This document shows positions 7,858-36,185 of a DNA stretch of 63,022 nt, one piece after another. Location: the IMG/VR virus record IMGVR_UViG_3300027857_000019, positions 1 through 63,022 of that record; one strand, given 5' to 3'. The notes under the pieces are model-generated. The model had not been told where the DNA came from and ran no database searches. It was given only the letters and a program-made list of their open reading frames with translations. The stretch is from a virus (lineage: Duplodnaviria > Caudoviricetes). The position numbers and the translations under genes were made by a program. Every line of letters begins with the position of its first letter. The first letter of the stretch is position 1.

Positions 7858-8015
7858 CACTCCAAGTCTGGTTCTGGCTGTTCATGGCGCTGTGGCTGGT
7901 CTTCGGCATCTGGCGCGGCCGTACGGACGGCTGGCCTTTCTGGGGCGGCCACTTCTTACTGTTCGTGCTCTTTGCGATTCTCGGGTGGCAAGTTTTCGGC
8001 TCGCCCGTGAAATGA
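7854..8015 (+). CDS. Small two-TM membrane protein (53 aa)
   Basis: MTLQVWFWLFMALWLVFGIWRG...FLLFVLFAILGWQVFGSPVK; ATGA overlaps at both ends. Confidence 0.7.
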   Translation: MTLQVWFWLFMALWLVFGIWRGRTDGWPFWGGHFLLFVLFAILGWQVFGSPVK

Positions 8016-8851
8016 TTCCGCGCAGTTACTACGTCGCTAACTCGGCGATGATTCCCTGCTCAGCATCCGACCTTGACTCTGACCCGCGCGGCATTATCTG
8101 GATATTCGAGGAGCCCGATCCACGAGGGGTCTACGTGATGGGAGTAGATCCGAGCGGCGGCATTCCACTATGGAATCGTTACGCCAGGACCGATTCTGAC
8201 CACCGCACCGATAACGGCGCCATACAGATTTTAAAGGTTGGCCGCGGCGAGGAGATCCCAGATAAGCAAGTGTGCGAGTTCGCCGCCCCGATCGACCCGG
8301 AAGATTTGGGCGAGGTTGCTAACATTGTCGGGCGGGTGTACGGCGGCTCAAGCGAAGAGGGTCAGGCTAAGGCCATCATTGAGATTCAACCCGGACCTGG
8401 CTTGCTCACTCAACGCAAGCTCATAAGCTACGGCTACACGAATCTCTTCGTCTGGTCCTACTTGGACGGCGCCACGCTCACGCGCACCAACACGATGGGT
8501 TGGACATCGACGCCCCGCACACAGCGCGACCTGTGGCTCCGTTCAAGTCGGCATATGATTCACGGGCTTTGTGACCTGTCGAGCCCTTGGCTGATCGAGG
8601 AAATGGCCGACGCCGAAATGAACATGGCGAAGATGCGCGCGCAGTCCGTCTATGGCAAGCATGACGATAGGCTGATGGCGTTGATGCTCGCCATTTGGTG
8701 CGCGCGTGAGTGGTCGCTCGACGTGGAGACGGTGCCGAGCGACTTAAGGACTGATGCAAAGCCGGTTGACCCACAGGCGTGCGACATGACATACTCCCAG
8801 ATGATGGACCAGTGGGAAGAACAGTTCTGCGCGTTAGGAGAGGAACGATGA
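8012..8851 (+). CDS. terL: Terminase large subunit, C-terminal RNase H-like nuclease domain only
   Basis: IWIFEEP..YVMGVDPSGG, DNGAIQIL, IIEIQ, HDDRLMALMLA; no Walker motifs; ATG coupled to the upstream gene. Confidence 0.85.
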   Translation: MIPRSYYVANSAMIPCSASDLDSDPRGIIWIFEEPDPRGVYVMGVDPSGGIPLWNRYARTDSDHRTDNGAIQILKVGRGEEIPDKQVCEFAAPIDPEDLGEVANIVGRVYGGSSEEGQAKAIIEIQPGPGLLTQRKLISYGYTNLFVWSYLDGATLTRTNTMGWTSTPRTQRDLWLRSSRHMIHGLCDLSSPWLIEEMADAEMNMAKMRAQSVYGKHDDRLMALMLAIWCAREWSLDVETVPSDLRTDAKPVDPQACDMTYSQMMDQWEEQFCALGEER

Positions 8852-9321
8852 CTCTCATGGATCTGAGTCGCCGCGCGCTTTTGAAGTCGCTTGCGGCGCT
8901 GGTCACAGCGCCGACAATTCCAGTGATGGCTGCGGCCAAGCCTAATCGTCATTGGATCAAACCGCACTTTTCCGGCTTTCAGCCCATGCCGGCAGCTTTG
9001 TCTGTGGCTGGGCAGATCATTGGACAGCGTTCGGACGGTATCCATTTTTGTTCCAGTGTAAGAATTGACCTAGTAGACCTTGAAATGGAACTCAGAGAGG
9101 AGCGAATACCGCTAGACATTCTGAGCATGAGAAATCTTACGCCGACCGAGGCTGGGCGCTTCTCTCCGTTGATCGCAACGCGCATGGAAGCCGCCGCCGA
9201 TCTATTCAACTCTTTCCTGAATTGCGATTGCACGCTCCGTACGCAATGCGCTCAGCACTACCGACCTATGCCGGAGTTGAGTCCTGAAGAATTGGCAGAA
9301 TTAGAGGAGGAACTCGCATGA
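8848..9321 (+). CDS. Hypothetical protein with a twin-arginine-like N-terminus
   Basis: MTLMDLSRRALLKSLAALVTAP. Confidence 0.55.
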   Translation: MTLMDLSRRALLKSLAALVTAPTIPVMAAAKPNRHWIKPHFSGFQPMPAALSVAGQIIGQRSDGIHFCSSVRIDLVDLEMELREERIPLDILSMRNLTPTEAGRFSPLIATRMEAAADLFNSFLNCDCTLRTQCAQHYRPMPELSPEELAELEEELA

Positions 9322-9797
9322 GCGGTGCGGCCAAATACGACGATGAAATCAAGTACGAGACGATAGTCCCCGCCGCGCTGACGAAAAAGTTAAAGGCAAG
9401 CACGCAGAACATCACGGGTCAACTGCTTCGCCTGCCCCTACGCTTCGAGGAGATGTACGTCTTCATGCAGGAGGCCGATCGTGCTGGCATGGAACTCGAA
9501 GAATACCTTGCGCGCCAACTCCGCGACTACGGACGCACCAAGACTGGCTCGTACATCGTCAATCCCGACGAACGCCGCGAGATCGAACAGATTTTAGGTA
9601 TAAACCTAGGCATCTCAACGACAAGCCTCTCGCGGCATATCAAACTTCTGGCCGTTTGCGGCTTGCAGGGCACGGCTGTACTGTTCCCGGTCGATGTCAT
9701 CAAGCGGCTTCGCTCACGCTGCATCGGTAAGCAGGATTTCAAGGTGTGGCTGGAGAAGACCGTCATCCAGCAGATGAAGAACTACGTGGGGATGTGA
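9318..9797 (+). CDS. Hypothetical protein, possible ribbon-helix-helix domains
   Basis: GAGGAG RBS; LRLPLRFEEMYVFMQEADRAGMELEEYL pattern. Confidence 0.55.
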   Translation: MSGAAKYDDEIKYETIVPAALTKKLKASTQNITGQLLRLPLRFEEMYVFMQEADRAGMELEEYLARQLRDYGRTKTGSYIVNPDERREIEQILGINLGISTTSLSRHIKLLAVCGLQGTAVLFPVDVIKRLRSRCIGKQDFKVWLEKTVIQQMKNYVGM

Positions 9798-10105
9798 TGC
9801 GCTGCGGCAATTGCGAGCACGAGATGGTCATCGGGGATTGGCCCTTCTGCCCACACGGGCAAGCCTTCACGCACGACGCCCAAATCTCCGACCGCGAGGC
9901 CATCGTCCTGTACGAACATCCGACTAAGGGCGTGCGCTGGCCAGGGCGCAACGACGCGCCGATTCCCGCGCATTTTGCATGCGAGGGCTTCGTGCGCAAG
10001 GAGTATAAGGGAGGGATTGCCGATGTGCGAAGAATCGAAAAGCAGCACGGGGTCACCAGCGAAATCGGGAATTACGACCGAAGCGGACACGCCGACAGAG
10101 AATAA
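9797..10105 (+). CDS. Zn-ribbon protein upstream of the portal
   Basis: MRCGNC...WPFCPHG. Confidence 0.6.
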   Translation: MRCGNCEHEMVIGDWPFCPHGQAFTHDAQISDREAIVLYEHPTKGVRWPGRNDAPIPAHFACEGFVRKEYKGGIADVRRIEKQHGVTSEIGNYDRSGHADRE

Positions 10106-10132
10106 ACGTGTTAGGCTGTAAACTAAGTTTAC

Positions 10133-12058
10133 ATGCCAGCGCCATCACGAACCGCCTTACCCTTCCGCGAAAGAGAAGCCGAAAATTACGAAAAAGATCT
10201 ACTGGGCTTTTGCAATGAGGCGATTCAACAGGGCGATGCCTACCTTCGAGCGCAGACGGGGTACGACAAGATTCAGAAATCCATCGACGCGATCATGTCG
10301 GTTGAGGATTCCCCTCGCGCCTCGTCACTCTCCGACACGAAAGCGAACCACACGGGCAAGACGGCGCTTGACCTCGCATCCCTCCTGACTGACACCAAGC
10401 CATTCTGGGAATATCGCACGCCGCCAGGTTCCAGCTTCGGCAAAATTGCCGAGAACCTAGGCAAGTGCTCGCAGTACTGGTATCTCCAGAAGCGCATCGA
10501 CATGCGGCAAGGCGATGTCATCAAGTACGCTCTAGCCGGAGGTACGGGCTATCCGCACATCACTTGGAACCCGAAGACTCTCGACGCAGACATGACCGCC
10601 GAGGACCCGCGCGACGTGCTGCCGATCTCGCCCGTCGAGCACGACACCCTGCAATCGGGACTCGGCGTCATCATCCGGCGTGCCCGAGTTCCCTGGTTCG
10701 TCCGTAGTCAATACGGCATCGACGTGCCTCCCGACAAGGACGGCTCATCGACTGGCGGGGCCGCAGTCGCATCCTCACGAGCGATGCGATTGCTGGAGAA
10801 GTTGGGAGGGTCACCGTTCTGGGATGTGCTAACTAAATCGAAGCCCGCACGCCAAATGCCACGACTGCCGACCGTGGATGTATTCACGATGTACATCCAC
10901 GATGATCGCGTGAACGAAGAGCGGTATCCGGTTCAGATTGGCGAATTCGACCGTGAAGGGAAGCCGCTGAACAATTGGTCGTACATCGTGGAATCCGGCG
11001 AGGAACTCTACCCGCGCGGGCGCATGGTGGAATTCTGCCGCACGCACAAGAAGCCTCTATACGACGGGCCGAATCGCTATTGGCACGGCATGTTCCCACT
11101 GCCGAAGCTAACGCTCGATCCATGGCCCTGGACGTTTCTAGGCAAGGGCGGCTTGTGGGACACGCTACCATTGCAAGGGACGCTTAACCGACTCCTGCGC
11201 GTTATTGACGATCAAGTCGAGAAGATTGGGCGCCCTGATATCGTTGCCGACAAGAATTCCATCTCAGAAGGGGCACTGAATAAGATTGACACTCGGCGCG
11301 CCGGACTTAAGATTCGCTTCAATCCGATGTCCGGTAAGGGCGTCGAGATCGTCAAGAGCAATCCTATCGACGCCTCGATCATGAACTTAGTGCAGTTCAT
11401 CATCAGCCAAATCAAGGAACTGTCCGGCGCGGCCGACCTCGGGCAGTTGATGAAGCTCAACCAACTGCCGAGCGATGACACGATCAGTCGCATTGTGGAG
11501 GCGATGAGTCCAGCCGTGAGAGCTCGGTCGCGGGCACTCGAAGCCTATGTACGCGAGTTCGCGACGATCATGGCGTACAATTTCCTCCAATTCTACACAG
11601 AGCCAATGTGGATGGAGATTTGCGGCCCGAACGCGGTTACGCCCGATTGGTTCGACTTCGATCCTGGAACGTTCCTGCCCGATTACATCCATCGCAGCGA
11701 CATGGATAGGCGCGGCATTCCCACGCGAGCGGCTTTGGACCGTGGCCCCTTGCCGCGGCAAGACCGGGCGAAGGAACTCATGCGGAGCGTGGCCTTCCAC
11801 GTCGCGCCTGGTTCTTTGCTGGCGGCGTCGGCAATGGAACACAAACTCTTGCTCCTGCAATTGTCGCGAGCTGGGTTAATCGATCACTGGACCTTGCTCG
11901 AAGCGCTGGAGATTCCAAACGTGGGAGATGCACCGGCTGGCACAATTACTGATAGACTAATGGCTGAGCAAAAGATGGGGCTCGGGATGCAAGTGAGCGC
12001 GGCAGGCCGAAAGGCGAGCGGACAGAAAATGCCAAGGCAGGTGACAAAAGAATCATGA
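10133..12058 (+). CDS. Portal protein (podovirus/P22-like)
   Basis: 641 aa; position before scaffold and capsid; helical PLQGTLNRLLRVIDDQVEK segment typical of portals. Confidence 0.8.
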   Translation: MPAPSRTALPFREREAENYEKDLLGFCNEAIQQGDAYLRAQTGYDKIQKSIDAIMSVEDSPRASSLSDTKANHTGKTALDLASLLTDTKPFWEYRTPPGSSFGKIAENLGKCSQYWYLQKRIDMRQGDVIKYALAGGTGYPHITWNPKTLDADMTAEDPRDVLPISPVEHDTLQSGLGVIIRRARVPWFVRSQYGIDVPPDKDGSSTGGAAVASSRAMRLLEKLGGSPFWDVLTKSKPARQMPRLPTVDVFTMYIHDDRVNEERYPVQIGEFDREGKPLNNWSYIVESGEELYPRGRMVEFCRTHKKPLYDGPNRYWHGMFPLPKLTLDPWPWTFLGKGGLWDTLPLQGTLNRLLRVIDDQVEKIGRPDIVADKNSISEGALNKIDTRRAGLKIRFNPMSGKGVEIVKSNPIDASIMNLVQFIISQIKELSGAADLGQLMKLNQLPSDDTISRIVEAMSPAVRARSRALEAYVREFATIMAYNFLQFYTEPMWMEICGPNAVTPDWFDFDPGTFLPDYIHRSDMDRRGIPTRAALDRGPLPRQDRAKELMRSVAFHVAPGSLLAASAMEHKLLLLQLSRAGLIDHWTLLEALEIPNVGDAPAGTITDRLMAEQKMGLGMQVSAAGRKASGQKMPRQVTKES

Positions 12059-12654
12059 TGAAGCGTGGAGAGATTCGTACATGCGCTTGCGGTTGTGGAG
12101 AACCAGCCGCAGTTTATCGTAACGCCAAGGGAGAAAACAAGGGCTGGCGAGGATATGCACGCGGCCATTCTCCATGCGAAGGACTTGAGGTAAAAGTGCC
12201 CTCCCAATCGGTAGATCTAGCCTACATGGCGGGAATTATTGATGGTGAAGGTTGCATTTATGCCAGAGTCGTACTGTATCCCAAAAGAGGCATGAGCACG
12301 TTCCTCCAACTATCAGTCACTATGTGCTCTCCCTCGGTCATCGAATGGATACATGAGAATTTTGGCGGAGAAATTTATCTTTCCTCGCCTCCTTCTGGCG
12401 CTCGCCGCGAGCGATTTCATTGGCAAGTCCGAGGCGCAAACATAAGCATTGTTCTCTCGGCAATCCTCCCCTACCTAAGAGAAAAGAGCGTCAGGGCCAT
12501 TCTCGCGATGGAATTAGCTGGACTAATCAAGCGAGGAGGAAAGAATATTGGGCAAGAAGAGGTAAGTCGTAGGCAGGATCTAGCGGGTAAAATCAAGGCT
12601 TTTAATCAGGCCTTGTTGAGCGAAGATCCGGCCAGGAATGTACCGATTAATTGA
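12055..12654 (+). CDS. Free-standing LAGLIDADG homing endonuclease with an N-terminal CxCGCG motif
   Basis: LAYMAGIIDGEGCI motif; PYLREK; ATGA overlap with the portal stop. Confidence 0.9.
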   Translation: MMKRGEIRTCACGCGEPAAVYRNAKGENKGWRGYARGHSPCEGLEVKVPSQSVDLAYMAGIIDGEGCIYARVVLYPKRGMSTFLQLSVTMCSPSVIEWIHENFGGEIYLSSPPSGARRERFHWQVRGANISIVLSAILPYLREKSVRAILAMELAGLIKRGGKNIGQEEVSRRQDLAGKIKAFNQALLSEDPARNVPIN

Positions 12655-12689
12655 ATCGTAGTTCGCAGTGGCAGTGAAAGGAGCGAATA

Positions 12690-12977
12690 GTGGTACATGA
12701 TCTTGCAAAGATTACGGGGGCCGATACAAACCCTCACGCCCTCTTGTCGGTTAGAACTTCCGCCTGTTGGGTTCAACTCATAGCTGATCCGGGCAATACG
12801 AGCCCTGTGAATGTTGGCGGTCCCACCTTGGCGACAGGACGTGGACTCCCTATCGCTAAAGGAGCCGGTCAATTGTTCCCGCCCGTTGCGGACATTAACA
12901 GTTACGATCTGCAAAAAATCTTTTACCAGTTCGGCACGATTAACGATGTGCTCTGGGTAACGTACCATACGAGGTGA
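12690..12977 (+). CDS. Small beta-rich virion-associated protein
   Basis: IADPGNTSPVNVGG motif; GGAG RBS. Confidence 0.55.
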   Translation: MVHDLAKITGADTNPHALLSVRTSACWVQLIADPGNTSPVNVGGPTLATGRGLPIAKGAGQLFPPVADINSYDLQKIFYQFGTINDVLWVTYHTR

Positions 12978-12981
12978 GCAA

Positions 12982-13170
12982 ATGGCTGGAACAATATTCG
13001 GCAAGCCGCGCGATGAGGTTGTAAAGCGCCCCGGCGCGTTCTCGGCGAAGGCAAAGAAGGCTGGGATGTCCACGGCTGGCTTCGCCAAGAAAGAGGAACA
13101 CGCGAAGGGCAGACTCGGCAAGCAGGCGCGGCTGGCGGAAACATTCGCGCACATGCGAGCCAAAAAGTAG
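12982..13170 (+). CDS. Small basic phage protein (KRPGAF...GKQARLAETF type)
   Basis: 62 aa, Lys/Arg-rich; GAGGT RBS. Confidence 0.7.
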   Translation: MAGTIFGKPRDEVVKRPGAFSAKAKKAGMSTAGFAKKEEHAKGRLGKQARLAETFAHMRAKK

Positions 13171-13199
13171 TACAATTCAACGCAAGGAGACAGAACGCA

Positions 13200-13355
13200 A
13201 TGGCAAAGCACGAGAAGATGGGCGGCCACAATTACGAGGGCAAGAGCGGCCATATGGCCCGCAAGGAGCATGAGCCCAAGAAGCTCGCCCACGGCGGCGG
13301 CAAGAAGGGTAGTGGCTTCATGGTCACGCCGATGCACAAGAATCTGGCGAAGTAA
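13200..13355 (+). CDS. Small Lys/His/Gly-rich basic protein (51 aa)
   Basis: Manual translation MAKHEKMGGHNYEGKSGHMARKEHEPKKLAHGGGKKG...; AAGGAG RBS. Confidence 0.65.
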   Translation: MAKHEKMGGHNYEGKSGHMARKEHEPKKLAHGGGKKGSGFMVTPMHKNLAK

Positions 13356-13361
13356 GTCTCC

Positions 13362-13817
13362 GTGCCTGATATCCTCTCAGTCTCGGGACCCGGCTCGCGC
13401 GACAAGTCGGAGGATAACCGGCTCTCTGGTCCACCGCCCCTCCCGCCCGACGCTACGCGCCCCGCGCACAAGCACATGAAGGCGCTGATGGACCGCAGCG
13501 ACCGGGACCAGAACGACCCCGGTATGGGGCGCGACTCGGCCAATCCATTCGTCCGTAAGATGATGAGCATGAAGAATATCGAAATGGGCATTCGGGATGC
13601 CGTGGCCGCCGATCCCAATCTTTCCGCGCCGATGGCTCAAATTTTGCAAGCCGCTCAGGCCGCCATCCTCGGCAGCTTGCAATCTGGGCCTGGACTCGCG
13701 CCAACTTCAGCTATCCTGCCTCCACCGGGCATGCCTTCCCCTGCCGGGGCTGCACCGGGAGGACCGTCGCCCATGCCGGGGCCAGCGGTCCTCCCGATGC
13801 CTCCACCCGGACAATGA
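13362..13817 (+). CDS. Pro-rich hypothetical head-module protein
   Basis: 151 aa between portal and scaffold. Confidence 0.6.
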   Translation: MPDILSVSGPGSRDKSEDNRLSGPPPLPPDATRPAHKHMKALMDRSDRDQNDPGMGRDSANPFVRKMMSMKNIEMGIRDAVAADPNLSAPMAQILQAAQAAILGSLQSGPGLAPTSAILPPPGMPSPAGAAPGGPSPMPGPAVLPMPPPGQ

Positions 13818-13818
13818 T

Positions 13819-13857
13819 TTGACATCCCGTCAAACATAGGTGTAAACTCCCTGTACA
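13819..13857 (+). promoter_or_regulatory. Promoter TTGACA-18-TAAACT overlapped by the TGTAAAC-N3-(G)TTTACA-type palindrome
   Basis: Read directly, upstream of the scaffold/capsid operon. Confidence 0.65.
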
Positions 13858-13959
13858 GTAGCCAATTAGCCTAGGCGTCTAGCGCTCAGCGAGAATCAGG
13901 CCCGCAAGGCTGGCGATTTCTCCGGGTAGGATGCTGGCAGACGAAAAGGATTACGACGA

Positions 13960-14760
13960 ATGACAGCGGCAGAAGCGAAAAAAGAATTTGCGAAGCTGGC
14001 GAAGGAACACGGTCTCTCTGATGAACAGCAGACCGCAGTGCTTCAGGCTTTTGAGAATGAGAAATTCGCTGGCGCGGTAGCAACTGGCTATGCGCGTCAC
14101 TCCGAGTACAGCTCGGCGCTCGACAAGAAACGGGAGTTCGAAGAGAAATTGGCGACCTACGAGAAGTGGTACAAAGAACAGGCAACACCCGCAATCCAAT
14201 TCGCCAATTCCAAACTTACCGCCTTGGAAGAGTACGAGAAGCGGTTCGGCAAGTTAGACGACGAATCGACGCCTGGAGAAAAGAAGGCCGCGGCCGGCGC
14301 CGCAGGACTTACGCGCGAGGAGATTGAAAAGCTCCTGGAGCAACGGAACAATGCACTGTCGGGAGCGTTCGTGGATTACGAGCGCACGATGGGCGACATT
14401 CGGGATGAGTATCGCGACACGTTTGGAAAGCGCTTGCCAGTCGGGGAACTCGAAAAGTTCATGCGCGAACAGAAGATTACCGATCTTCAGGTCGCCTATG
14501 AACGCTGGACGAAACCTCAACTGGAGGAAGTCCGAACGAAACAGCGCGAAGAAGAGCGCAAGAAAGACAGGGAAGAGTGGGAGCGTGATTTTCGGTCCCG
14601 CAACAAGATGCCCTCGGAGCAACGTCCTGAGCCGACGACCGTCCTCGAAGACCTGACCAAAATCAGGCACCAAAAGGACTATAACGAGAACGCTCAGAAC
14701 GAAGAGGCCAAGGAAGCTTTCCTGAGTTCGATGCGCGAAACCTGGCAGAAGTCAGCGTAA
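13960..14760 (+). CDS. Capsid scaffolding protein
   Basis: Highly charged and helical, 266 aa, immediately upstream of the major capsid gene. Confidence 0.7.
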   Translation: MTAAEAKKEFAKLAKEHGLSDEQQTAVLQAFENEKFAGAVATGYARHSEYSSALDKKREFEEKLATYEKWYKEQATPAIQFANSKLTALEEYEKRFGKLDDESTPGEKKAAAGAAGLTREEIEKLLEQRNNALSGAFVDYERTMGDIRDEYRDTFGKRLPVGELEKFMREQKITDLQVAYERWTKPQLEEVRTKQREEERKKDREEWERDFRSRNKMPSEQRPEPTTVLEDLTKIRHQKDYNENAQNEEAKEAFLSSMRETWQKSA

Positions 14761-14810
14761 CACCCGGACCATCCTCGCTCATCCGGCACTTCAATTCATG
14801 AGGTGGCCGA

Positions 14811-16187
14811 ATGGCCGAATTAGACCAGATAAACGTAAGCACCAAACGCTTCATTCGCAAGAAGCCAAAACTGATCGACAACGTTAGCGATTGAGAGGCG
14901 TTGTATAAACCCGAGGTAATTTCATGGGACACCCACCGAAACCGGGCAACCAGAGGCAAGCGATGGAGCCGCCAGAAGGAATGCCAGTCTGCTCTAAGAG
15001 AATGGCATATTGGCTCAGGCAACATTTTGCAGCCGCAACGACTAAACCCTTGGGGCCGGAAACGGCATGTGATAGTCTGAACTGCACCGATGGGAAAGGT
15101 GCAGAGGTGACGGAAACGATCACCCGCCCGAATTGATCCGGGTTCACAAGTAACAGCAAGCTTTCAGAACGACCCGACAGCCGCTTACGCTAAAGAAAAC
15201 CTTCGAGAGGATTTCGACGGCGGGCGACTCATAGGGGAGAATTTCATCTATAACGGGCTCGTGGGCGGCTCTTACCTGCCGGGTAAGCAGTTCGACACCA
15301 CGCAGATCCAAATCGAGCAGCAAGGCCAATTCACCATAAGGTATTTCGAGGTGGGCGTTACGCTCTCCAAGGAAGACATTCAGGTGATAAACAAGGGCGA
15401 AAACGCCGCCTTCAGGCTGATCGATTCGCGCATGGAGGCCGCCTATATGACGTTGGGCGCCCACCTTGCGATTTCGCTCTACATGAGCGGAACGGGCACA
15501 ACCGCCGCTCAGCCGAATGGACTGGCTGAGGCGCTCAATGACAACACTACCGCCTCGTGGGATGGCAACCTGTATTCCACATACGGCACACTTACCCGCG
15601 GCGGCTCCATCGGTGCGGCCTACAATTCCCCGCCGACCAACGTCAACGGGACTATCGAGTACAACACGCTCGAAGAGGTCTATGGCGACTGTACTTTCGG
15701 CGCTGGCGAATTCGAACCAAACATCGGCGTTACCACTGTGAAGGGCTACTCCTACATTAAGGAGAAGTTCCAGACACAGCAACGCTTCAACGACACCCAG
15801 GACCCGAAGATCGGGTTCAACGGCCTGAAATTTAACAATTCGGTCATCATGAAATCGCGCTACGCCCCCGGTTCCTATCTGACCGGGCCATCTGGCGCGG
15901 GAACCAATGACCCGATCGCGCTCACCTATCTGCGCCAATCGCAGGGCAACCCGGCCGCCGTCTACCCAGTCGGCTCGCTTGGCAACACTGGCGAGACGCT
16001 GTTCTTCCTGAACGCGCGCAAACCGTTCATGAACTTCTACATGACCAACGATGAGGAGTACGGCATGGGCTTCACAGGGTTCAAGCCATCGGCCGGCAAC
16101 ACTCTCATCGTCGGGCAAGTCCTACTGGCCTGTAACGTGACCTTCTCGCCGCGTTATCATAGGCAGTTGTACGGAATCACGGGATAA
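14811..16187 (+). CDS. Major capsid protein, spliced (exon 1 14811-14884, exon 2 15161-16187; 366 aa)
   Basis: GAGGT RBS + ATG; joining gives MAELDQINVSTKRFIRKKPKLIDNV-FQNDPTAAYAKENL...GGSYLPGKQFD in frame; position after the scaffold; capsid-like motifs (NGLAEAL, IGFNGLKFN). Confidence 0.85.
14885..15160 (+). ncRNA. Group I self-splicing intron (276 nt, no ORF)
   Basis: Exon ends in U, intron ends in G; IGS TGAGAGGCGTTG (14892-14903) pairs with 5' exon CAACGT (U.G at the splice site) and 3' exon CTTTCA; P3 CCGAGG/CCTTGG; P7 GACTA (15040)/TAGTC (15073); P8 GCC-GGAAAC-GGC; P9 CTGCAC/GTGCAG. Confidence 0.92.
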
Positions 16188-16199
16188 GGAGACAATCAC

Positions 16200-16730: not shown

Positions 16731-16741
16731 AAGGAGGATGA

Positions 16742-16990: not shown

Positions 16991-16993
16991 CCC

Positions 16994-18220: not shown

Positions 18221-18236
18221 AGTACGATAAGCATTC

Positions 18237-21176: not shown

Positions 21177-21297
21177 AAACTCGACGACACCATAACAACG
21201 ACGGGCGGAAACAGATTCAAAGTGGAGGAACGACTAAGGCGCTTAAGAGAATAGCTAAAAAGTTACACCTTCGATTTGTCGGGGCAAAGTTCAAAAC

Positions 21298-25978: not shown

Positions 25979-25981
25979 CAC

Positions 25982-29911: not shown

Positions 29912-30810
29912 TGGCGAAGCAGGGACTTCCTCAGCGTGCAGCGCCTAAATTAGTTGACACTTCCATACAGACACTCCAACGCGCTTTCGATCAGGCATTC
30001 AGCAATATCTACCAACTGCAGTCCAGCATCCGAAGCGTCACAGCGCCAACGTCGGTCTCTCCCGGTTTGTCCGGCACTCACTCGGAGCGCATAACCGACT
30101 TTCCGCCTGGCAACTACGCGGCTGGCACGCAGTTCTTTGAGACCGACCGGAACTTGCTATATGTCGTGGTAACGATTGCATCCGCTGGAGGGCCGGTAAA
30201 TCAATGGCTGTACGCTTCGGGGATCTACCAGCGCCTCCAAAATCAATTAGCTTCGCTCAAGCCAACTCTGACGGCTTATGATAACGGATTGCTGGCCGAG
30301 GTCACAGATTACCGGCATATTCTGCGCTGGACAAGTCCAAGTTGGGGTTGGGGGCCTGGAGATGATGGACGGGCTGGCGAGGGGCCAATCATGCGCGAGG
30401 TTGACCCGAACCCCACGACTGGTTGGCACCTCTATGACGGTTCAACCGTTGCCTACCTGAACGCCGATGGGACGACGACGAACGTAACTTTGCCGGATCT
30501 GACGAGCGTAGCTGCCAATGCGTCCTATCTTAAGGCTGGCAGCCCAAACAGTGGCCCGAATGCCGCTACCCCCCCGACAACGGCAGCGGGCGGCTCAACC
30601 AACGCGGCGGCCACTGGAATATCAGACACCCAACCTCTAACCGGATCAGTGAGCGTTACACCGGCCGCTGGTTCATCAGTCGCCGTCAATCCGCATACTC
30701 ACCCGATCGTTGATCCTCAACATAGTCACACGTTCGGCGCCGGAGCGATCACGATAAATACCGATGGGCAACCCCGAAACTTGGAGCGAAGGCCTTGGTT
30801 TCGCCTCTAA
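29911..30810 (+). CDS. Tail/collar-like virion protein
   Basis: TGWHLYDG, LPDL, HTHPIVDPQHSH motifs resemble tail-collar proteins. Confidence 0.55.
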   Translation: MAKQGLPQRAAPKLVDTSIQTLQRAFDQAFSNIYQLQSSIRSVTAPTSVSPGLSGTHSERITDFPPGNYAAGTQFFETDRNLLYVVVTIASAGGPVNQWLYASGIYQRLQNQLASLKPTLTAYDNGLLAEVTDYRHILRWTSPSWGWGPGDDGRAGEGPIMREVDPNPTTGWHLYDGSTVAYLNADGTTTNVTLPDLTSVAANASYLKAGSPNSGPNAATPPTTAAGGSTNAAATGISDTQPLTGSVSVTPAAGSSVAVNPHTHPIVDPQHSHTFGAGAITINTDGQPRNLERRPWFRL

Positions 30811-30828
30811 AAGGAGTATCATAGCGTC

Positions 30829-31521
30829 ATGGGCGGCTTCACTAATCCTTTGGGCAGTTCGCCGACAGCGGGTCCAGCCGCTCCGCTTGCGCCGCAGCCT
30901 AGTTCTGGCGATTCGCTGGCCGCTTACCTCCAATCACTTACGAATCGCGGGGCTACTACCGGCGGCGACCAGACCCAGGCTGGAGGTCAACTCCTGCAAT
31001 CCGGCGCAGGAACTACCGCGACAGGCTTGAATCAATTCACCGACCCGATCAACTATTGGAAGGCTATACTCGCCGGTGATCCAAATACGACATCGAGCGC
31101 ACTGGCCCCGACTGTGGCAAACGTAAACGCGCAATATGACGCTGCAAACAAGAGTTCTAGTCAGATGATGCCGAGGGGCGGATTTGCTTCGACGGTACGC
31201 GCGAATCTGCCATTTCAGAAGTCGGCACAGGTGAGCAACTCTATTCTCGGACTGCAACCGCAAGCCGCCAGCGCCTTGACAGGCATAGCGAATAATGAGT
31301 CTCAGATCGGACTCGGGCAACAAGGAATCGGCGTGAATGAGCAGGGGGTCGGGCTTCAGCAGTTGCAAGCGGCCTTACAGGCTCTCTTACAGCGGCGGCA
31401 ACAGAATGTCTCGCAGGATATTTCCAATACAGGCTTGCTAACTGGAGGACTCTCAAATCTTACGGGAGACATTCTAGGGAGTGGCCCTATCATGAAATCG
31501 CTAGGATTCCCAACTCCTTAG
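30829..31521 (+). CDS. DNA ejection/pilot-like protein
   Basis: Gly/Gln/Ala-rich; position after the nozzle in podovirus gene order. Confidence 0.55.
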   Translation: MGGFTNPLGSSPTAGPAAPLAPQPSSGDSLAAYLQSLTNRGATTGGDQTQAGGQLLQSGAGTTATGLNQFTDPINYWKAILAGDPNTTSSALAPTVANVNAQYDAANKSSSQMMPRGGFASTVRANLPFQKSAQVSNSILGLQPQAASALTGIANNESQIGLGQQGIGVNEQGVGLQQLQAALQALLQRRQQNVSQDISNTGLLTGGLSNLTGDILGSGPIMKSLGFPTP

Positions 31522-31525
31522 CCCT

Positions 31526-33283
31526 ATGGGAGCCAATGCCTATTTCGCCGAACTCGCGAGGATTAAGTCACAGGAACGTCAAAATAAGTGGCTACAGCAG
31601 ATTGAAAAGTCTCGTCAAGACTGGATGGAAAATCCAGAACTCACGGGAGCCGAACGACAGGCTGCTCATGACAAATGGGTCAAGCAGCTCGACATTGGGC
31701 CAGCGGAGGATCACGAGAAATTCGGCGGTCTCATCGGTGCAATCGGGAAGTTGGTTCATCATCACGGTAAAGCCGTCGATGCCCAGGCCGCGCAGAACGA
31801 CCTAAAGGAAGCGCAAAACCGTGTAGCGCAGACGGCTCCAGGCATGGGAGCGCCTGCCGCAGGCTCGCCAACGCCAGGACAGGCAGTCTTGCCGCCTCCA
31901 GGCAGCGCTATGCCAGCCGTGACGCCTCCACCTGCCCAACCGCCCGCTGAAGTCAGCAAAGGGGTACAAGGGGCTGAGGATGCCGTAGAAGGGGGCACAG
32001 GAGGGCAATCCAGCCCGGTAAACGCCGCCGCAGGAGCAGGAGTGGCCCCGCCAGTCGCTCAAGCGGCTGCGGCCGCTCCAGCGTCGCCCAGCCCTTGGAT
32101 GAGCCTAACGGAGCGCAACCTTGCAACGGAAAGGGCTAAAGCGCAGCAGACCGCCGAGATGGGCTTGGCCGCTAACAAGGCCAAAGTTGAGCAGAATATC
32201 GGCCTTGTCGGGCCTGAAGACTTCGCTAAACTAGACCCATTCCAGCGTGCGCAACTCCGGACTGGCGCGCCGATTCAGCGGGACTATCGGCCTGTCGTGA
32301 GCAAAGGCGGCGAGCGAGCTTTAAGCGAAGGTGAGCGCGCGGTATTCCCAACGGACTTCATGACGGGTGAGCCATTGAAGGAGGGAGACATCGTATCGGC
32401 GGTTATGGTTAATGGGGAACCTCAGGGCTTCTCGCGCATCACGCCGAAGACGGTAGGCGGTCCTACGACGGTAGGGCCGAATGGACAGACAACGGTGAAC
32501 CGGGTGAATCCCTATGCGCCTCCCGGCGCTACGCCTGTGGTGGGGACCATCCCAGCAATGCTCCCCACCACTTCGAGCACGTCATCCACTAAGCCCGTGA
32601 AGATTGGCGAGGACGCTCAAGGTAATGTAACATATGCGGACATGACGAGCAGTTCGTCGGCGACAAAGCAAAAAGTCACGCCGAAAGGCCCGATAAATCT
32701 GACTCCTCCAAGTGGAGCACCGAAGCCAAGCGGGGGCGGAGGGGTTCCGAAGACGAGAACCTTCGAGGGCATAAAATCTGATTCTGCTCTGAAGCGCGAC
32801 ATAGAGAACCAGTACGATGCCAAGGGCGCTGAGGCTATGGCTGAGACCACGCCGGTTATCAAGATGGTCGATAGAGCCATCGCGATGATTAAAGCCGATG
32901 GCGAGAACAGCAATATGCCGTTCACGCGCACGCTTCAGCGCCTTGGCTACAAGTACGGGTTGGCGACCGACGCCTCTAAGCTCATCAACAATTTGGAGCT
33001 GGGCAAGGTGATTGGGGCGGCGCGCGTGTTGAAGGGGGGCTCACGTTCCTATCAAGCGCTTGAGCTTGCGATGCAGCATTTGCCGAACGTTACGACAGGC
33101 TCAAACAAGTTGATGTTGGAACAATTGCAGAATGTGCGCCAGAACCTTACTGACGTGCAGGACGCGGCCAATCAGTTTCACCGCAAGTATCCCGGCAAGA
33201 ATGCGCCGAATACACCACAGACTTTGATACCTCCAGGTGCAGGCCGCATCAAGATTCTGAGCGTGGAGCCGGTTGCACAGTAA
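31526..33283 (+). CDS. Putative internal virion/ejection protein
   Basis: 585 aa, low-complexity, helical C-terminus; syntenic position. Confidence 0.5.
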   Translation: MGANAYFAELARIKSQERQNKWLQQIEKSRQDWMENPELTGAERQAAHDKWVKQLDIGPAEDHEKFGGLIGAIGKLVHHHGKAVDAQAAQNDLKEAQNRVAQTAPGMGAPAAGSPTPGQAVLPPPGSAMPAVTPPPAQPPAEVSKGVQGAEDAVEGGTGGQSSPVNAAAGAGVAPPVAQAAAAAPASPSPWMSLTERNLATERAKAQQTAEMGLAANKAKVEQNIGLVGPEDFAKLDPFQRAQLRTGAPIQRDYRPVVSKGGERALSEGERAVFPTDFMTGEPLKEGDIVSAVMVNGEPQGFSRITPKTVGGPTTVGPNGQTTVNRVNPYAPPGATPVVGTIPAMLPTTSSTSSTKPVKIGEDAQGNVTYADMTSSSSATKQKVTPKGPINLTPPSGAPKPSGGGGVPKTRTFEGIKSDSALKRDIENQYDAKGAEAMAETTPVIKMVDRAIAMIKADGENSNMPFTRTLQRLGYKYGLATDASKLINNLELGKVIGAARVLKGGSRSYQALELAMQHLPNVTTGSNKLMLEQLQNVRQNLTDVQDAANQFHRKYPGKNAPNTPQTLIPPGAGRIKILSVEPVAQ

Positions 33284-34584
33284 TGGCCGTCAAGCGCATC
33301 ACGGCGGAAGTAGACGGCAAGCAGATGGTGGTAACTGCCGACATCCCCGATGATGCCACGCCAGAGGAAATCGAGCAGGCAGTCAGTGGGGCACACCAGA
33401 GTGTACAGCCTCCTCCTCCCGGTGCAGCACAGGGCAAGTTCCAGTATCCTCCAGGAGTGCAAGCCGAACTCGCGCATTCGACTGTTGCGCCAACGCGCTG
33501 GGATATTGCCAAGCAAGCGCTGACTGGGGCTGGAAAATACCTACTCGATCCTAATGGGATCTCGCACGGCAATGGTCTCCGGCAAATCATCGCAGATCGG
33601 GACGACCCGGCTACTGGAGTCAAGAAAGGCGACATCATGCTAGGGATGGGCGGGGATCATGGCCCTCTCGCCTATAGCACTCCTGCGGAGGAAGGCGGGG
33701 GGATGCTTGCAGGCATTCCCGGCGCAGTACAGATGGGTCTGAGTATAGGCGCTCCACTCAGTAGGGCTCTTTCACGACTCAAGCCTTCAGCTTCTCCGAG
33801 CGGTCAAGGGTCATGGTTGGCGAACAAGGCTATGGAATTCGGCGCAAGACGCGTTCCCTTCGGCAGGGACCTCTTGGATGCCTACCGGAAATCCGCAGGA
33901 ATTGCGTTGCCCGAAAGCCCTAGCCCTACGTGGAGTCCGGGGCAGCCGACTGGCATTCCAGGGCAAATTGAATTACCGCCTCCGCCAATACGCCCCTCTA
34001 CCCAAAGAGCACCTGGACCTTTGCCGACTCCCGAACCGATACCCGTTCGACCGTCTACCCAGCGTGCGCCGGGACCGATTGCGCCGCCTCCAACGGAAGC
34101 GCCGCCAGTCTTTCGTGGCTCAACGAATCGCGCTATTAGCCTCGCTCCGCCTGAGGAAGCCGCCACTTCCGCGAGTGCTGCGCCGGGAACCCCGAAAGCG
34201 TGGCGCGGCGGTAACGTGCCTGAGGATCAGTTCGCAGAGATCAAAGCGCGCATGGAGCGCAATGTTGCAGAAGGAGCGCAGCCGAAGCAGCCCATCGAAT
34301 TGAAGCCTCCCGGCGAGAAGCCTCAACCGCCAGTCGCTCGAAGCCTCGAAGACCCACGTACCGTCCTGGAGCCGGTCTCCGAGAACAAGGACACCGTTCT
34401 CGCCCAGCGCTTCATGAAGATGGGCATGACGCCGGAACAGGTCGAGGCCCTCTCAGACGCGGAGACGAACCGGCACTCGATTGAGGCTGGTTTCAGCAAG
34501 TTCTACGGCAAGCATCTGAGTCGGACGCCTGCGGAGGGTAGGGCCTACATCGCGAACCGGATGCGCGAGCTCTCTAAACCTTGA
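33283..34584 (+). CDS. Putative internal virion/ejection protein, Pro-rich
   Basis: N-terminal VDGKQMVVTADIPDDATPEEIEQA; internal RPSTQRAPGP repeats. Confidence 0.5.
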   Translation: MAVKRITAEVDGKQMVVTADIPDDATPEEIEQAVSGAHQSVQPPPPGAAQGKFQYPPGVQAELAHSTVAPTRWDIAKQALTGAGKYLLDPNGISHGNGLRQIIADRDDPATGVKKGDIMLGMGGDHGPLAYSTPAEEGGGMLAGIPGAVQMGLSIGAPLSRALSRLKPSASPSGQGSWLANKAMEFGARRVPFGRDLLDAYRKSAGIALPESPSPTWSPGQPTGIPGQIELPPPPIRPSTQRAPGPLPTPEPIPVRPSTQRAPGPIAPPPTEAPPVFRGSTNRAISLAPPEEAATSASAAPGTPKAWRGGNVPEDQFAEIKARMERNVAEGAQPKQPIELKPPGEKPQPPVARSLEDPRTVLEPVSENKDTVLAQRFMKMGMTPEQVEALSDAETNRHSIEAGFSKFYGKHLSRTPAEGRAYIANRMRELSKP

Positions 34585-34777
34585 TGCCCTTGTACGTGCC
34601 GTTAATCCGCGCGTGGAAGTACTTGCCGACCGAGTGCGCCTTCAGCAGATTGTTGTAGTGAAACTCAGGCACGCCAGGATAGCGGTAGCGCTTGCCATTC
34701 TCGAAGACGATGCTCAACTCGTGGGACTCTTTATCGTACTCGGCGGATTTGATGTGGGAGGATTTTAGGTCAGGCAC
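34574..34777 (-). CDS. KTSC domain protein
   Basis: SSHIKSAEYD...LSIVFENGKRYRYPGVP...LLKAHSVGKYFH. Confidence 0.9.
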   Translation of the reverse strand: MPDLKSSHIKSAEYDKESHELSIVFENGKRYRYPGVPEFHYNNLLKAHSVGKYFHARINGTYKGIKV

Positions 34778-34940
34778 GGCCCTTCGCCATCGTTGGAAGT
34801 GCGGAGCGCTTCGTGGAAGCAAAGTCGTGCAACTGCCCCTTGCTCATCTTCAGCAAGCCCTTGTTCTTCGCATAGAGTTTCCCTGGTGAATGTTCAGCAA
34901 TAGCCATCGCTTCCTGCTGCTTTTTACTTACGGCTGGCAT
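34770..34940 (-). CDS. DUF3008-like small basic protein (56 aa)
   Basis: Manual translation MPAVSKKQQEAMAIA...MSKGQLHDFASTKRSALP. Confidence 0.75.
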   Translation of the reverse strand: MPAVSKKQQEAMAIAEHSPGKLYAKNKGLLKMSKGQLHDFASTKRSALPTMAKGRA

Positions 34941-34949
34941 ATCCGTATT

Positions 34950-36185
34950 CTACCTCATGTGCTGAAGTTCACCTGATGATGGGGCCTTCGTGGATGTGGC
35001 GATATCGTAGGGAATTCCCTCATGCGCCCGATTACGGCATCGCTCCAAGAACTCTGTCGGGAATGCGCTACGCCCCGAATGCTGGAAACTCTCCTGAGGA
35101 GTGGCGCTCCAATTCGAGAGGAAGAAGTTGAGATTCCCCGCGCGCCGGTATTCCTCGCGTGTCGTTTCCCACCAGTAGAGGTTATCCTTGGGCAGGAAAT
35201 ACCGTTGCCAGCGCGTGTACAGGTGCGAGGTCTCCGAGACTTTCTTCGCGTGCAGGATGGACTGCTCGGCTGGTTCCCAATCGGTCGGCGGATGGCGGCG
35301 GTATTTCTTCGGCTCGGCGTACCAGGGAATAAAGATGTAGGTCCAGCGCGGATGTTTTCCCTTTCTGCAATCTTCGGTGAACTCGTGCCAGAAGTTGCCG
35401 CGGCCGGCCGGCACCGCCTCCATGCCGAACAGCGTGTTGATAGACTGTGGAATCGCAGGCATCAGGTCGAACTGAATCACGCCGGGATACTGCCATTGCG
35501 AGACCTCCGTCAAGTGGCCGATCTCGAATTGCCGCGATATTCCCATTGCGCCCTTTTGCGAGGATTCCTGATAGATGAGGCGGGAATTGTTTGCGAAGGC
35601 TAGATGCTCATCCTTCACGTCGTAGACGATGGCTGGCTTGAGAAATGATGGCAACTCCTGATACATGAACTTGTCGCGGTCGTAGACTTCGCGGATAAGA
35701 TCAGAATTGAGGCTGGCAGCCATACCGCGCGTGTGGTCGTTCAGCACGAGCCGATGGACCGACAGGCAGCGCCAGATCATCGTGAAGCCTATCTGCCGCG
35801 ATTTATTGCAGGCTACTAGGATGCCATCGACGGGCTCTCCACGAGAGCGTTGCTCATGGCATTCTTCCTCTTTCTTGCCGATCTTTTCCATGAGCATCTC
35901 TTGGGGCTCCCAGTAGTTGAGAGGGCCAGCGCCGCCGCCGACCGTTGCATCAATGTTGATGGTCAGATAGCGGTTGGCGCAGTACTGGAAATCCAGCTTG
36001 CAGAGGATTTGCTCGTTGTGAATGAAATCGTGATCTTCGCTCGTAATGGCTTTCTTCTTGGCTAGAAGCGCGTCGATCTCTTTGGCGCGTTCAATACTAA
36101 CGGCTGGCTTGTGGCGCTTTAGCTTGAGCTTGAGGGCCTTCTGGACCTTGTGAGTGTTCTGGTCTACGATGAGCGGGGAGTACAC
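34950..36185 (-). CDS. terL: Terminase large subunit, N-terminal ATPase domain only
   Basis: Q-motif WEPQ, Walker A-like KSRQIGFT, Walker B-like GHLTE, EAVPAGRGNFW, IFIPWY; ends before any nuclease motif. Confidence 0.85.
   Translation of the reverse strand: MYSPLIVDQNTHKVQKALKLKLKRHKPAVSIERAKEIDALLAKKKAITSEDHDFIHNEQILCKLDFQYCANRYLTINIDATVGGGAGPLNYWEPQEMLMEKIGKKEEECHEQRSRGEPVDGILVACNKSRQIGFTMIWRCLSVHRLVLNDHTRGMAASLNSDLIREVYDRDKFMYQELPSFLKPAIVYDVKDEHLAFANNSRLIYQESSQKGAMGISRQFEIGHLTEVSQWQYPGVIQFDLMPAIPQSINTLFGMEAVPAGRGNFWHEFTEDCRKGKHPRWTYIFIPWYAEPKKYRRHPPTDWEPAEQSILHAKKVSETSHLYTRWQRYFLPKDNLYWWETTREEYRRAGNLNFFLSNWSATPQESFQHSGRSAFPTEFLERCRNRAHEGIPYDIATSTKAPSSGELQHMR

What the first reader, a model, noticed from the sequence alone, without database searches (positions are those of the whole stretch)
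8012..36185. Terminase large subunit split into two genes 26 kb apart on opposite strands
Seen: the nuclease half (279 aa, 8012-8851 +) has only RNase H-type acidic motifs, and the ATPase half (411 aa, 34950-36185 -) has only the Walker-type motifs and sits with a TerS candidate. Each is an intact ORF with its own start in a different operon. There are no intein ends, intron core or shared DNA repeat, and both seem to keep part of the linker (GIPYDIA vs IPRSYYVA). Established: TerL is normally one polypeptide. Inference: a three-component packaging motor assembled in trans, possibly created by an old inversion of 8012-34949.
Basis: partly seen in the sequence, partly recalled or inferred. Interest (0 to 1): 0.82.

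Follow-up and report, generated by a model that had tools for sequence, protein, structure and literature searches.

The report
Phage terminase split into two genes
A soil phage encodes its DNA-packaging enzyme as two separate genes 26 kb apart on opposite strands, and most of its relatives also carry it in two pieces, although this enzyme is normally a single protein.

Summary
The window is a complete circular 63-kb phage genome. ORF 34950-36185(-) is a TerL ATPase domain and ORF 8012-8851(+) a TerL RNase H-type nuclease domain. Profile searches and predicted folds both match T4 gp17 best, and the catalytic residues are invariant. No other TerL was found.

It is not a mis-assembly. A second assembly is 100% colinear over both junctions, a Logan contig of genome length is identical over the 20 kb laid, which include the right junction, and no inverted repeats flank the segment.

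The split did not arise by the inversion. Of 67 distinct relatives, 60 are split and 7 fused; 59 have the halves on one strand, 0-3.5 kb apart, often with unrelated genes between. Only the window has them on opposite strands. The closest relative with DNA in hand has ATPase-small ORF-KTSC-nuclease-portal on one strand, so one ~26.5-kb inversion of the structural module explains the window.

No intein, intron or recoding can join the halves here. Both are under purifying selection in relatives. A complex model docks the ATPase C-terminal strand onto the nuclease N-terminal sheet. The best reading is a non-covalent two-chain TerL. The TerS assignment is unverified.

The parts
34950..36185 (-). 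TerL ATPase half, 411 aa. Walker A-like K128-S-R130-Q131-I-G-F-T135; H224-L-T226-E227 (Walker B / catalytic Glu region); G261-R262; C-terminal docking strand G390-I-P392-Y393-D-I
8012..8851 (+). TerL nuclease half, 279 aa, RNase H-like fold. Invariant D46, E124 and D219; conserved N-terminal strand R26-G27-I-I-W-I-F-E33-x-P35
7854..8015 (+). 53-aa hydrophobic small ORF whose stop overlaps the start of the nuclease half (ATGA); suggests translational coupling
36186..36491 (-). 101-aa ORF abutting the ATPase start. Its position is conserved in relatives. It is a TerS candidate by position only
36609..37250 (-). 213-aa protein with a CxxC zinc-ribbon, conserved upstream of the packaging genes in relatives
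34770..34940 (-). 56-aa ORF directly downstream of the ATPase half; no Pfam hit
34574..34822 (-). KTSC-domain protein, 82 aa. In the closest relative with DNA in hand it lies between the ATPase and nuclease halves and overlaps the nuclease start, so its end marks the right breakpoint of the inversion
10133..12058 (+). Portal protein, 1.3 kb downstream of the nuclease half, as in the relatives
7507..34573 (.). Segment inferred to be inverted relative to the ancestral order (nuclease half to the end of the structural module). The left breakpoint lies somewhere in 7507-8011, the right one at about 34574-34584

Best explanation
This phage makes its large terminase from two polypeptides: a 411-aa ATPase chain and a 279-aa nuclease chain. 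They are translated from separate genes in separate transcription blocks and assemble non-covalently into a working TerL.

Shown:
- Both domains are TerL domains with their catalytic residues.
- The split at the inter-domain linker is the usual state of a large clade of about 55-67-kb soil phages.
- In this genome the halves lie 26 kb apart on opposite strands.
- The layout differs from the closest relative with DNA in hand by one inversion of the structural module.

Inferred:
- The conserved C-terminal strand of the ATPase chain (G-x-P-Y-[ED]-aliphatic, residues 390-395) adds to the conserved N-terminal beta-sheet of the nuclease chain (residues 10-16 and 28-32, R-G-h-h-W-h-h-E-x-P). Helix contacts (ATPase 364-387 with nuclease 188-216) add to this. 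Together they replace the covalent hinge.
- Because the gene was already in two pieces, the inversion was tolerated.
- The split probably began as an interruption at the linker. That site now serves as an insertion site for HNH endonuclease genes, methyltransferase genes and other cargo genes in relatives.
For: Domain identity and catalytic residues.

Only one copy of each half, and no other TerL among the ORFs scanned.

The assembly is sound.
- Circular record with 127-nt terminal overlap.
- A MAG contig of 63036 bp from a k141 assembly is 100% identical and colinear over window 6512-10348 and 24953-46185.
- A Logan contig of 62925 nt covers 18001-38000 in one piece, with 0 differences, depth about 30 and no joints.
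- No inverted repeats at the junctions.

The split is the norm.
- Of the best 120 of 218 ATPase-half homologues, 113 are 334-419 aa. Of the other seven, 4 are truly fused and 3 are ATPase-only with inteins.
- Of the 51 nuclease-half representatives at E<=1e-30, 31 stand alone, 17 are fused and 3 are long proteins with the nuclease match near the N-terminus.
- The survey covered 82 related loci plus the window. After dereplication at 97% there were 67 rows: 7 fused; 28 split with <=100 nt between the ATPase stop and the nuclease match; 21 split by 101-700 nt; 10 split by 917-3473 nt; and 1 on opposite strands, the window.

Contents of the gaps between halves: HNH_3 endonucleases, above Pfam's cut-off in L048 and L052 and below it in L077; C-5 and N6/N4 DNA methylases; a methyltransferase.

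Purifying selection on both halves: dN/dS was 0.02-0.16 in 7 closely related split pairs, including pairs with 1.3-3.1 kb between the halves.

Inversion: in G007:C279 (59% / 53% identity) the order is small ORF, ATPase, small ORF, KTSC, nuclease, two ORFs, portal, all on one strand. The window's block 37603->34574(-) and block 8012->33283(+) each match it colinearly.

No joining mechanism.
- The halves add up to the fused length, 411+279 against 660-713 aa, with no extra intein-sized sequence at the break.
- No Rfam family at gathering score in the window or in 6 relatives, other than one tRNA in L030. Nothing at E<=1 around either junction.

Complex model: ipSAE 0.86 in three runs against a best control of 0.31. 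The mark was reached by 58 of 80 solved complexes and 2 of 110 mismatched pairs. The runs agree in at least 82% of contacts and partner pLDDT is at least 79. The interface is as stated above.
Against: - There are no expression, proteomic or biochemical data for this phage.
- The complex model concerns halves of a split gene. Full-length TerL structures are solved, so its pass may reflect memory of those structures. My own alignments were used, so the calibration counts hold only roughly.
- For T4 gp17, the closest solved relative, a review states that splitting the protein at the linker kept ATPase and nuclease activity but lost DNA translocation (PMC3012670, passage read). Function in trans therefore cannot be assumed.
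- The opposite-strand layout is seen in one genome from one sample only.
- The arrangement in the closest protein relatives (P0002 at 85%, P0003 at 69%) could not be fetched.
- For the window itself dS against its nearest relative is saturated, so selection on this lineage is inferred from retained invariant residues alone.
Confidence: 0.8

Rival explanations
1. Assembly artefact: the 26.5-kb segment was flipped by the assembler, and the real genome has the halves adjacent on one strand.
For: The genome comes from a metagenome, and only one run holds it, probably the source sample. The three assemblies therefore may share the same reads.
Against: An assembler can flip a segment only between inverted repeats longer than its k-mer, and none exists at the junctions. 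The k=127 record, a k141 MAG contig and a k=31 Logan contig agree. The Logan contig is one piece of genome length with no joints or loose ends at the right junction. The left junction was checked only in the MAG contig, not by laid reads.
Confidence: 0.02
2. The halves are joined after transcription or translation, by a split intein (protein trans-splicing), a trans-splicing intron, or ribosomal recoding.
For: Inteins do occur in this family, in the ATPase halves P0076, P0110 and P0120 and by Pfam in the more distant P0173 and P0203. Interrupted terL genes in other phages are ascribed to group I introns (PMC4246154 and PMC12880540, passages read) or to recoding (PMC10732093, passages read). 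In 22 of 28 adjacent relatives the nuclease frame is -1 relative to the ATPase frame.
Against: In most relatives only 5-9 residues follow the conserved G-x-P-Y motif of the ATPase half; the window has 18. Only 26 residues precede the conserved G27 of the nuclease half. Neither end carries a conserved Cys/Ser or His-Asn, and the halves add up to the fused length. There are no intron-like RNA matches. Genes on opposite strands cannot be joined by cis-splicing, frameshifting or bypassing. The -1 offset is what an ATGA stop/start overlap gives.
Confidence: 0.03
3. The two chains work separately and do not form a stable TerL-like heterodimer. The ATPase ring alone translocates DNA. The nuclease is a free enzyme recruited only for the initiation and headful cuts, by the portal, the small ORF product or DNA.
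For: The halves lie in different transcription blocks, so their amounts and timing can differ. Translocation without an active nuclease is known for phi29 gp16 (recalled, no call). T4 nuclease-dead mutants still package linear DNA (PMC3012670, passage read).
Against: The docking motifs on both sides of the break are conserved in split and in fused forms. The complex model passes its controls with a large interface of 134-137 contacts.
Confidence: 0.12
4. One or both halves are decaying remnants, and packaging depends on another terminase from a helper phage or an unrecognised gene.
For: Many ORFs of the genome have no assigned function.
Against: All invariant catalytic residues are present in the window's copies. 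Both halves are under strong purifying selection in relatives. The pair is found in all 82 related loci examined. No second TerL match exists in the genome.
Confidence: 0.03

Closest known systems
T4 gp17-type large terminase (single-chain TerL of tailed phages)
   Same: Same two folds in the same order, and it is the best structural match for both halves. Walker A-like K-S-R-Q-x-G-x-T, a catalytic Glu, and a D/E/D nuclease triad are present. The gene lies next to the portal gene.
   Different: Two polypeptides instead of one, with the break at the hinge. For T4 the same cut was reported to abolish translocation (PMC3012670, passage read). No Pfam terminase model recognises either half, nor 10 relatives, most of them fused.
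terL genes interrupted by group I introns or homing endonuclease genes (Lelliottia phage phD2B; Jug jumbo phages)
   Same: terL appears as two or three ORFs, sometimes with an endonuclease gene between them (PMC4246154 and PMC12880540, passages read). In some relatives of the window an HNH_3 gene lies between the halves.
   Different: Those cases are read as exons that are spliced into one mRNA. Here no intron RNA is found. Each half has its own start and stop. The break is at the domain linker. In 28 of 67 relatives the halves abut with nothing between them, and in the window they lie on opposite strands.
[quoted passage not shown]
   Same: It is the only report found of the two TerL domains as separate CDS without a stated intron (PMC10773633, one passage read).
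   Different: The authors left it open as a possible codon-table or assembly issue. It is one genome, with adjacent genes. Its relation to this clade was not tested here.
Split-intein 'fractured' genes, including a TerL split intein from metagenomes (recalled from memory, no call)
   Same: An essential phage gene in two pieces that may lie apart in the genome.
   Different: Those carry intein halves that ligate the protein. Here there is no room for intein fragments and no intein motifs at the break.
Homing-endonuclease-made 'genes in pieces' in T4-like phages (nrdA of an Aeromonas phage; T4 topoisomerase genes 39/60; recalled from memory, search found no paper on them)
   Same: An enzyme that is a single chain in relatives is cut by insertion of a mobile endonuclease gene, and works as a non-covalent complex of the pieces. 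This is the likely origin model here.
   Different: A different enzyme. Here the split has spread through a whole clade, has been re-fused several times, and in the window the pieces have been moved 26 kb apart and inverted.
Streptomyces phage ter genes with UUA-linked frameshift or bypass
   Same: terL in two or three adjacent frames (PMC10732093, passages read).
   Different: There, short 7-10-nt gaps are thought to be read through by recoding to give the full-length protein. That cannot apply to halves on opposite strands.

Membership tests
Large terminase (TerL) of Caudoviricetes | N-terminal ASCE P-loop ATPase domain with Walker A, Walker B / catalytic glutamate | tested here: met
   Profile hit to T4 gp17 residues 155-305 at E 5.8e-7. 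Foldseek match to T4 gp17 ATPase at E 3.8e-12. K128, R130, Q131, T135, H224, T226 and E227 are invariant in 67 of 67 sequences.
Large terminase (TerL) of Caudoviricetes | C-terminal RNase H-like nuclease domain with an acidic metal-binding triad | tested here: met
   Profile hit to the RB49 gp17 nuclease at E 1.3e-8. Foldseek matches to T4, RB49 and G20c nucleases. D46, E124 and D219 are invariant in 37 of 37 sequences.
Large terminase (TerL) of Caudoviricetes | Both domains on one polypeptide | tested here: not met
   Separate ORFs on opposite strands, 26 kb apart. Separate frames in 60 of 67 distinct relatives.
Large terminase (TerL) of Caudoviricetes | ATP-driven DNA translocation and DNA cutting at the portal | not testable with these tools
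   Needs biochemistry. The only evidence is indirect: purifying selection and a complex model.
Split-intein fractured gene | Intein N- and C-fragments flanking the break, with a nucleophile at +1 and a terminal His-Asn | tested here: not met
   The halves add up to the fused length. The tails beyond the conserved extein motifs are 5-18 and 26 residues, with no conserved Cys/Ser or His-Asn. The defining features are recalled from memory.
Intron-interrupted terL | Group I or II intron RNA between exons on one strand | tested here: not met
   0 Rfam families at gathering score in the window, and 0 at E<=1 in 6500-9000 and 33500-36300. In 6 relatives the only match was a tRNA. The opposite strands exclude cis-splicing.
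Homing-endonuclease 'genes in pieces' | A free-standing homing endonuclease gene between the two pieces | tested here: inconclusive
   Not present in the window. HNH_3 is above Pfam's cut-off in the gap of L048 and L052 and below it in L077. Two gap ORFs with a LAGLIDADG-like motif by eye gave no Pfam hit. Most gaps hold other genes or nothing.
Small terminase (TerS), for the 101-aa ORF 36186-36491 | Recognisable TerS family or fold: N-terminal DNA-binding domain plus oligomerisation core | tested here: not met
   No Pfam or PHROG hit. The Atlas search gave no named relative, and the Atlas model has pLDDT 0.60. Only the position next to the ATPase half is conserved.

The most novel reading that the evidence does not exclude
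The covalent hinge between the motor ATPase and the nuclease of a tailed-phage terminase is dispensable in nature. A whole clade of soil phages runs a two-chain TerL held together by a conserved strand-to-sheet dock. Once the chains are separate genes they can be regulated apart. In this phage they sit in different operons, so the nuclease may be a detachable, separately dosed subunit that joins the ATPase ring only for the initiation and headful cuts.
Probability: 0.3. Interest if true: 0.85.

Novelty: new variant of a known kind. Interest (0 to 1): 0.75.

Why it matters
TerL is the hallmark gene of tailed phages and herpesviruses, and its ATPase-nuclease fusion is treated as universal (PMC7824862, passages read). 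Mechanistic models of the T4 motor pass force between the two domains through a hinge. Cutting T4 gp17 at that hinge was reported to kill translocation (PMC3012670, passages read).

A natural two-chain TerL that is evolutionarily stable offers three things:
- a ready-made system to test whether the covalent link matters;
- the conserved docking strand as a candidate for what replaces it;
- genomes in which the two genes are adjacent, separated by cargo genes, inverted or re-fused, as natural controls.

There is also a practical point. Virus-detection and taxonomy pipelines that use full-length TerL, or Pfam terminase models, will miss or mis-handle this clade. Neither half hits Pfam, and 10 relatives, most of them fused, hit no Pfam terminase model. 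Split terL ORFs should not be assumed to be introns, frameshift errors or mis-assemblies.

Tried and rejected
- Pfam on both halves and on 10 relatives, most of them fused: no terminase family.
- PHROGs on the nuclease half: nothing.
- Inverted repeats at the junctions as a substrate for inversion or mis-assembly: none.
- A site-specific invertase: none among the 40 window ORFs scanned. Not every ORF was scanned.
- Sigma-70 promoter and terminator scans at both junctions: nothing above the shuffles.
- Rfam introns: none.
- TerS identity of the 101-aa ORF: no support.
- My recalled name 'DUF3008' for the 56-aa ORF 34770-34940: not confirmed by Pfam.
- Public runs: only one run holds the stretch, and it is probably the source sample. 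It is therefore no independent sample, and it is kept as contigs, not reads.
- Metagenome-contig scan for closer relatives: 3 loci, none closer than 45%.
- Genome-contig scan: gave the same phage in a MAG, and the 59% relative.
- dN/dS for the window against its nearest relative: dS is saturated and the value is not usable.
- Literature: six searches found no description of a clade-wide TerL split at the linker without an intron. The library lacks most subscription journals, supplements were not read, and annotation guides were not searchable.

Full report
**What the window is.** The window is a whole IMG/VR virus record of 63,022 bp with direct terminal repeats, rated 100% complete. The repeat is 127 nt, the same length as in two related records, so it is the overlap of a circular assembly. 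The genes form four blocks:
- A, 336-7506, on the - strand
- B, 7636-34584, on the + strand
- C, 34574-37603, on the - strand
- D, 37861-62720, on the + strand

**The observation.**
- The ATPase half is 34950-36185(-), 411 aa. It starts directly after the stop of a 101-aa ORF.
- The nuclease half is 8012-8851(+), 279 aa. Its ATG overlaps the TGA of a 53-aa hydrophobic ORF, as ATGA.
- The portal gene, 10133-12058(+), lies 1.3 kb downstream of the nuclease half.
- Pfam recognises neither half. PHROGs gives 'terminase large subunit' for the ATPase half only, at E 1.4e-9.
- A profile of 67 ATPase-half sequences hits T4 gp17 residues 155-305 at E 5.8e-7.
- A profile of 37 nuclease-half sequences hits the RB49 gp17 nuclease domain at E 1.3e-8, and also T4, P74-26 and G20c.
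- The AlphaFold models have pLDDT 92.4 and 90.0.
- Their best PDB matches are the T4 gp17 ATPase domain, at E 3.8e-12, and T4 gp17 / RB49 / G20c nuclease domains.
- Invariant residues in the ATPase half are K128, R130, Q131 and T135 (K-S-R-Q-I-G-F-T, like T4's S-R-Q-L-G-K-T as I recall it), H224, T226, E227, G261 and R262.
- Invariant residues in the nuclease half are D46, E124 and D219.
- Each half occurs once in the genome. Ten other large ORFs gave no terminase match.

**Not an artefact.**
- No inverted repeat flanks the segment.
- A 63,036-bp contig of a Candidatus Sulfotelmatobacter MAG, named k141 and so from another assembly, is 100% identical to the window. It is colinear over 6512-10348 and 24953-46185, which covers both junctions.
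- The one public run that holds the sequence is probably the source sample. Its Logan contig is 62,925 nt long and covers 18001-38000 in one piece with no difference, no joint and depth about 30.
- These assemblies may rest on the same reads, so they exclude an assembler error, not a sample-specific variant.

**The split is older than the inversion and typical of a clade.**
- Of 218 homologues of the ATPase half in a length range that admits fused forms, the best 120 were listed. Of these, 113 are 334-419 aa.
- Of the seven long ones, four are true ATPase+nuclease fusions. Three are ATPase-only proteins carrying inteins.
- Among the 51 nuclease-half representatives at E<=1e-30, 31 stand alone, 17 are fused, and 3 are long proteins with the nuclease match near the N-terminus.
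- I then pulled 80 IMG/VR loci with the ATPase profile; these were the best 80 of 123 confirmed, and the other 43 were not examined. I added L005 and L030 and mapped both domains in six frames.
- All 82 loci have both domains. Seven have them in one open frame and 75 have them in separate frames on the same strand.
- Dereplication at 97% left 67 rows including the window:

| State | Rows |
|---|---|
| Fused | 7 |
| Split, <=100 nt between ATPase stop and nuclease match | 28 |
| Split, 101-700 nt | 21 |
| Split, 917-3473 nt | 10 |
| Opposite strands (the window) | 1 |

- Of the 28 adjacent pairs, 22 have the frame offset that an ATGA overlap gives. An ATGA-type 4-nt overlap is seen directly in G001.
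- The gaps hold HNH_3 endonucleases, DNA methylases, methyltransferase / glycosyltransferase-like genes and unknown ORFs.
- A quick maximum-likelihood tree of the concatenated domains needs at least six changes between fused and split, with the fused forms scattered among split ones. Parsimony favours a split ancestor with repeated re-fusion. The tree is a short search, is unrooted in effect, and the direction of change was not tested.
- The nearest cultivated phages are Tunturiibacter phages Tunturi_1 and Tunturi_2, 63 kb, with an Acidobacteriota host. Tunturi_1's annotated TerL is fused (723 aa), at 23% identity.

**The inversion.** The closest relative with DNA in hand is G007:C279. It is a 55,765-bp contig of another Sulfotelmatobacter MAG, 59% identical in the ATPase half and 53% in the nuclease half. 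All the following lie on one strand:
- zinc-ribbon protein
- two cargo genes
- 84-aa ORF
- 90-aa ORF (the homologue of the window's 101-aa ORF)
- ATPase half
- a small ORF
- KTSC, whose end overlaps the nuclease start
- nuclease half
- two ORFs
- portal, then head and tail genes

The window's block 37603->34574(-) is colinear with the first part, up to KTSC. The window's block 8012->33283(+) is colinear with the second part. G001 and G002, both complete 63.2-kb and 58.6-kb genomes, are likewise colinear on one strand.

One inversion turns the ancestral order into the window's. Its right end is at about 34574-34584, the end of KTSC. Its left end is somewhere in 7507-8011. The one block-A gene with a match, 3915-4148(-), lies on the + strand with the packaging and structural genes in G007. 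This agrees with the same single inversion.

**No joining mechanism.**
- The halves add up to the length of the fused relatives.
- In the alignment, the ATPase tail (..G-I-P-Y-D-I-A..) aligns to the fused 'G-R-P-Y-E-F-S'. The nuclease N-terminus aligns about 15-20 residues further on. Nothing is missing and nothing is duplicated.
- The tails are too short for intein fragments and lack their motifs.
- Rfam finds no intron in the window, at either junction, or in six relatives with gaps.
- Opposite strands exclude cis-splicing, frameshifting and bypassing.

**Function.**
- In seven closely related pairs of split phages, dN/dS is 0.02-0.16 for both halves. This includes pairs with 1.3-3.1 kb between the halves.
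- For the window against G007, dS is saturated.
- A complex model of the two chains scores ipSAE 0.86 in three runs, against 0.31 for the best of three controls.
- The mark was reached by 58 of 80 solved complexes and 2 of 110 mismatched pairs. Contacts agree in at least 82% across runs, and partner pLDDT is at least 79.
- ATPase residues 386-398 lie on nuclease residues 10-16 and 28-32. ATPase residues 364-387 lie on nuclease residues 188-216.
- These segments are conserved: G390 in 57 of 67 sequences, P392 in 43 of 67, Y/F393 in 63 of 67, G27 in 36 of 37, E33 in 33 of 37 and P35 in 34 of 37.
- Because full-length TerL structures are solved, this pass may be from memory. It shows likeness, not binding.

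**Comparison with what is known.**
- Split terL ORFs in print are ascribed to group I introns or endonuclease insertions. Examples are phD2B (PMC4246154) and the Jug phages (PMC12880540); passages read.
- Others are ascribed to recoding (PMC10732093, passages read).
- One case was left unexplained: phiPDS1 (PMC10773633, one passage read).
- A T4 review states that cutting gp17 at the linker abolishes translocation (PMC3012670, passage read).
- Six literature searches found no description of a clade-wide two-chain TerL. The library is incomplete, and supplements were closed.

**Verdict.** This is a new variant of a known enzyme, of real interest to people who work on packaging motors.

Noticed in passing
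relatives P0076, P0110, P0120; loci L065, L082-L084, L086, L091: Some ATPase halves carry inteins. In P0076 and P0110 the insert follows the Walker A-like K-A-R-Q-L-G-A and begins with Cys. P0120 has an insert further upstream. The loci named have ATPase frames of 668-768 aa, which I take to be the same kind of insert. Inteins and the linker split therefore coexist in this family.
   Followed up: partly
gaps between the halves in L036, L043, L045, L048, L051, L052, L059, L075, L077; L009 6458-10008: The site between the two halves is an insertion hot spot. It holds HNH_3 endonucleases, C-5 and N6/N4 DNA methylases, a methyltransferase, 703-aa and 981-aa unknown proteins, and in G002 about nine small genes.
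   Followed up: partly
window 18237-20272 versus G007:C279 45752-47742: Two genes that lie inside the window's structural module have their homologues between the zinc-ribbon gene and the small ORFs upstream of the ATPase half in G007. This is a second rearrangement, or cargo-gene movement, besides the inversion.
   Followed up: no
window 57616-58320, 59775-60473, 53198-54451, 51178-51924: A Mom-family DNA-modification protein (E 2.8e-29), an N6/N4 DNA methylase, a RecT-like annealing protein (E 1.7e-47) and a class 3 lipase domain (E 3.9e-18).
   Followed up: no
L029 / G006:C5 and L030 / G007:C279: This phage and its 59% relative are each a contig inside MAGs labelled Candidatus Sulfotelmatobacter (Acidobacteriota). 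The nearest cultivated phages infect the acidobacterium Tunturiibacter and have the same genome size. The host is probably an acidobacterium, though binning alone is weak evidence.
   Followed up: partly
P0127, P0143 (645 aa), P0150 (676 aa): Long proteins in which the nuclease-half match lies near the N-terminus, in two or three stretches. They may be nuclease halves with an intein, or fused to something downstream.
   Followed up: no
window 36609-37250; L018 2922-3803; L009 2299-3120: A zinc-ribbon protein with weak Anti-TRAP / DnaJ CXXCXGXG matches below Pfam's cut-off. It is conserved two or more genes upstream of the ATPase half in all four genomes compared. It could be the DNA-recognition partner of the terminase.
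   Followed up: no
L030 15551-15622: A tRNA gene (66.8 bits) in the relative G007:C279. The window itself has no tRNA.
   Followed up: no
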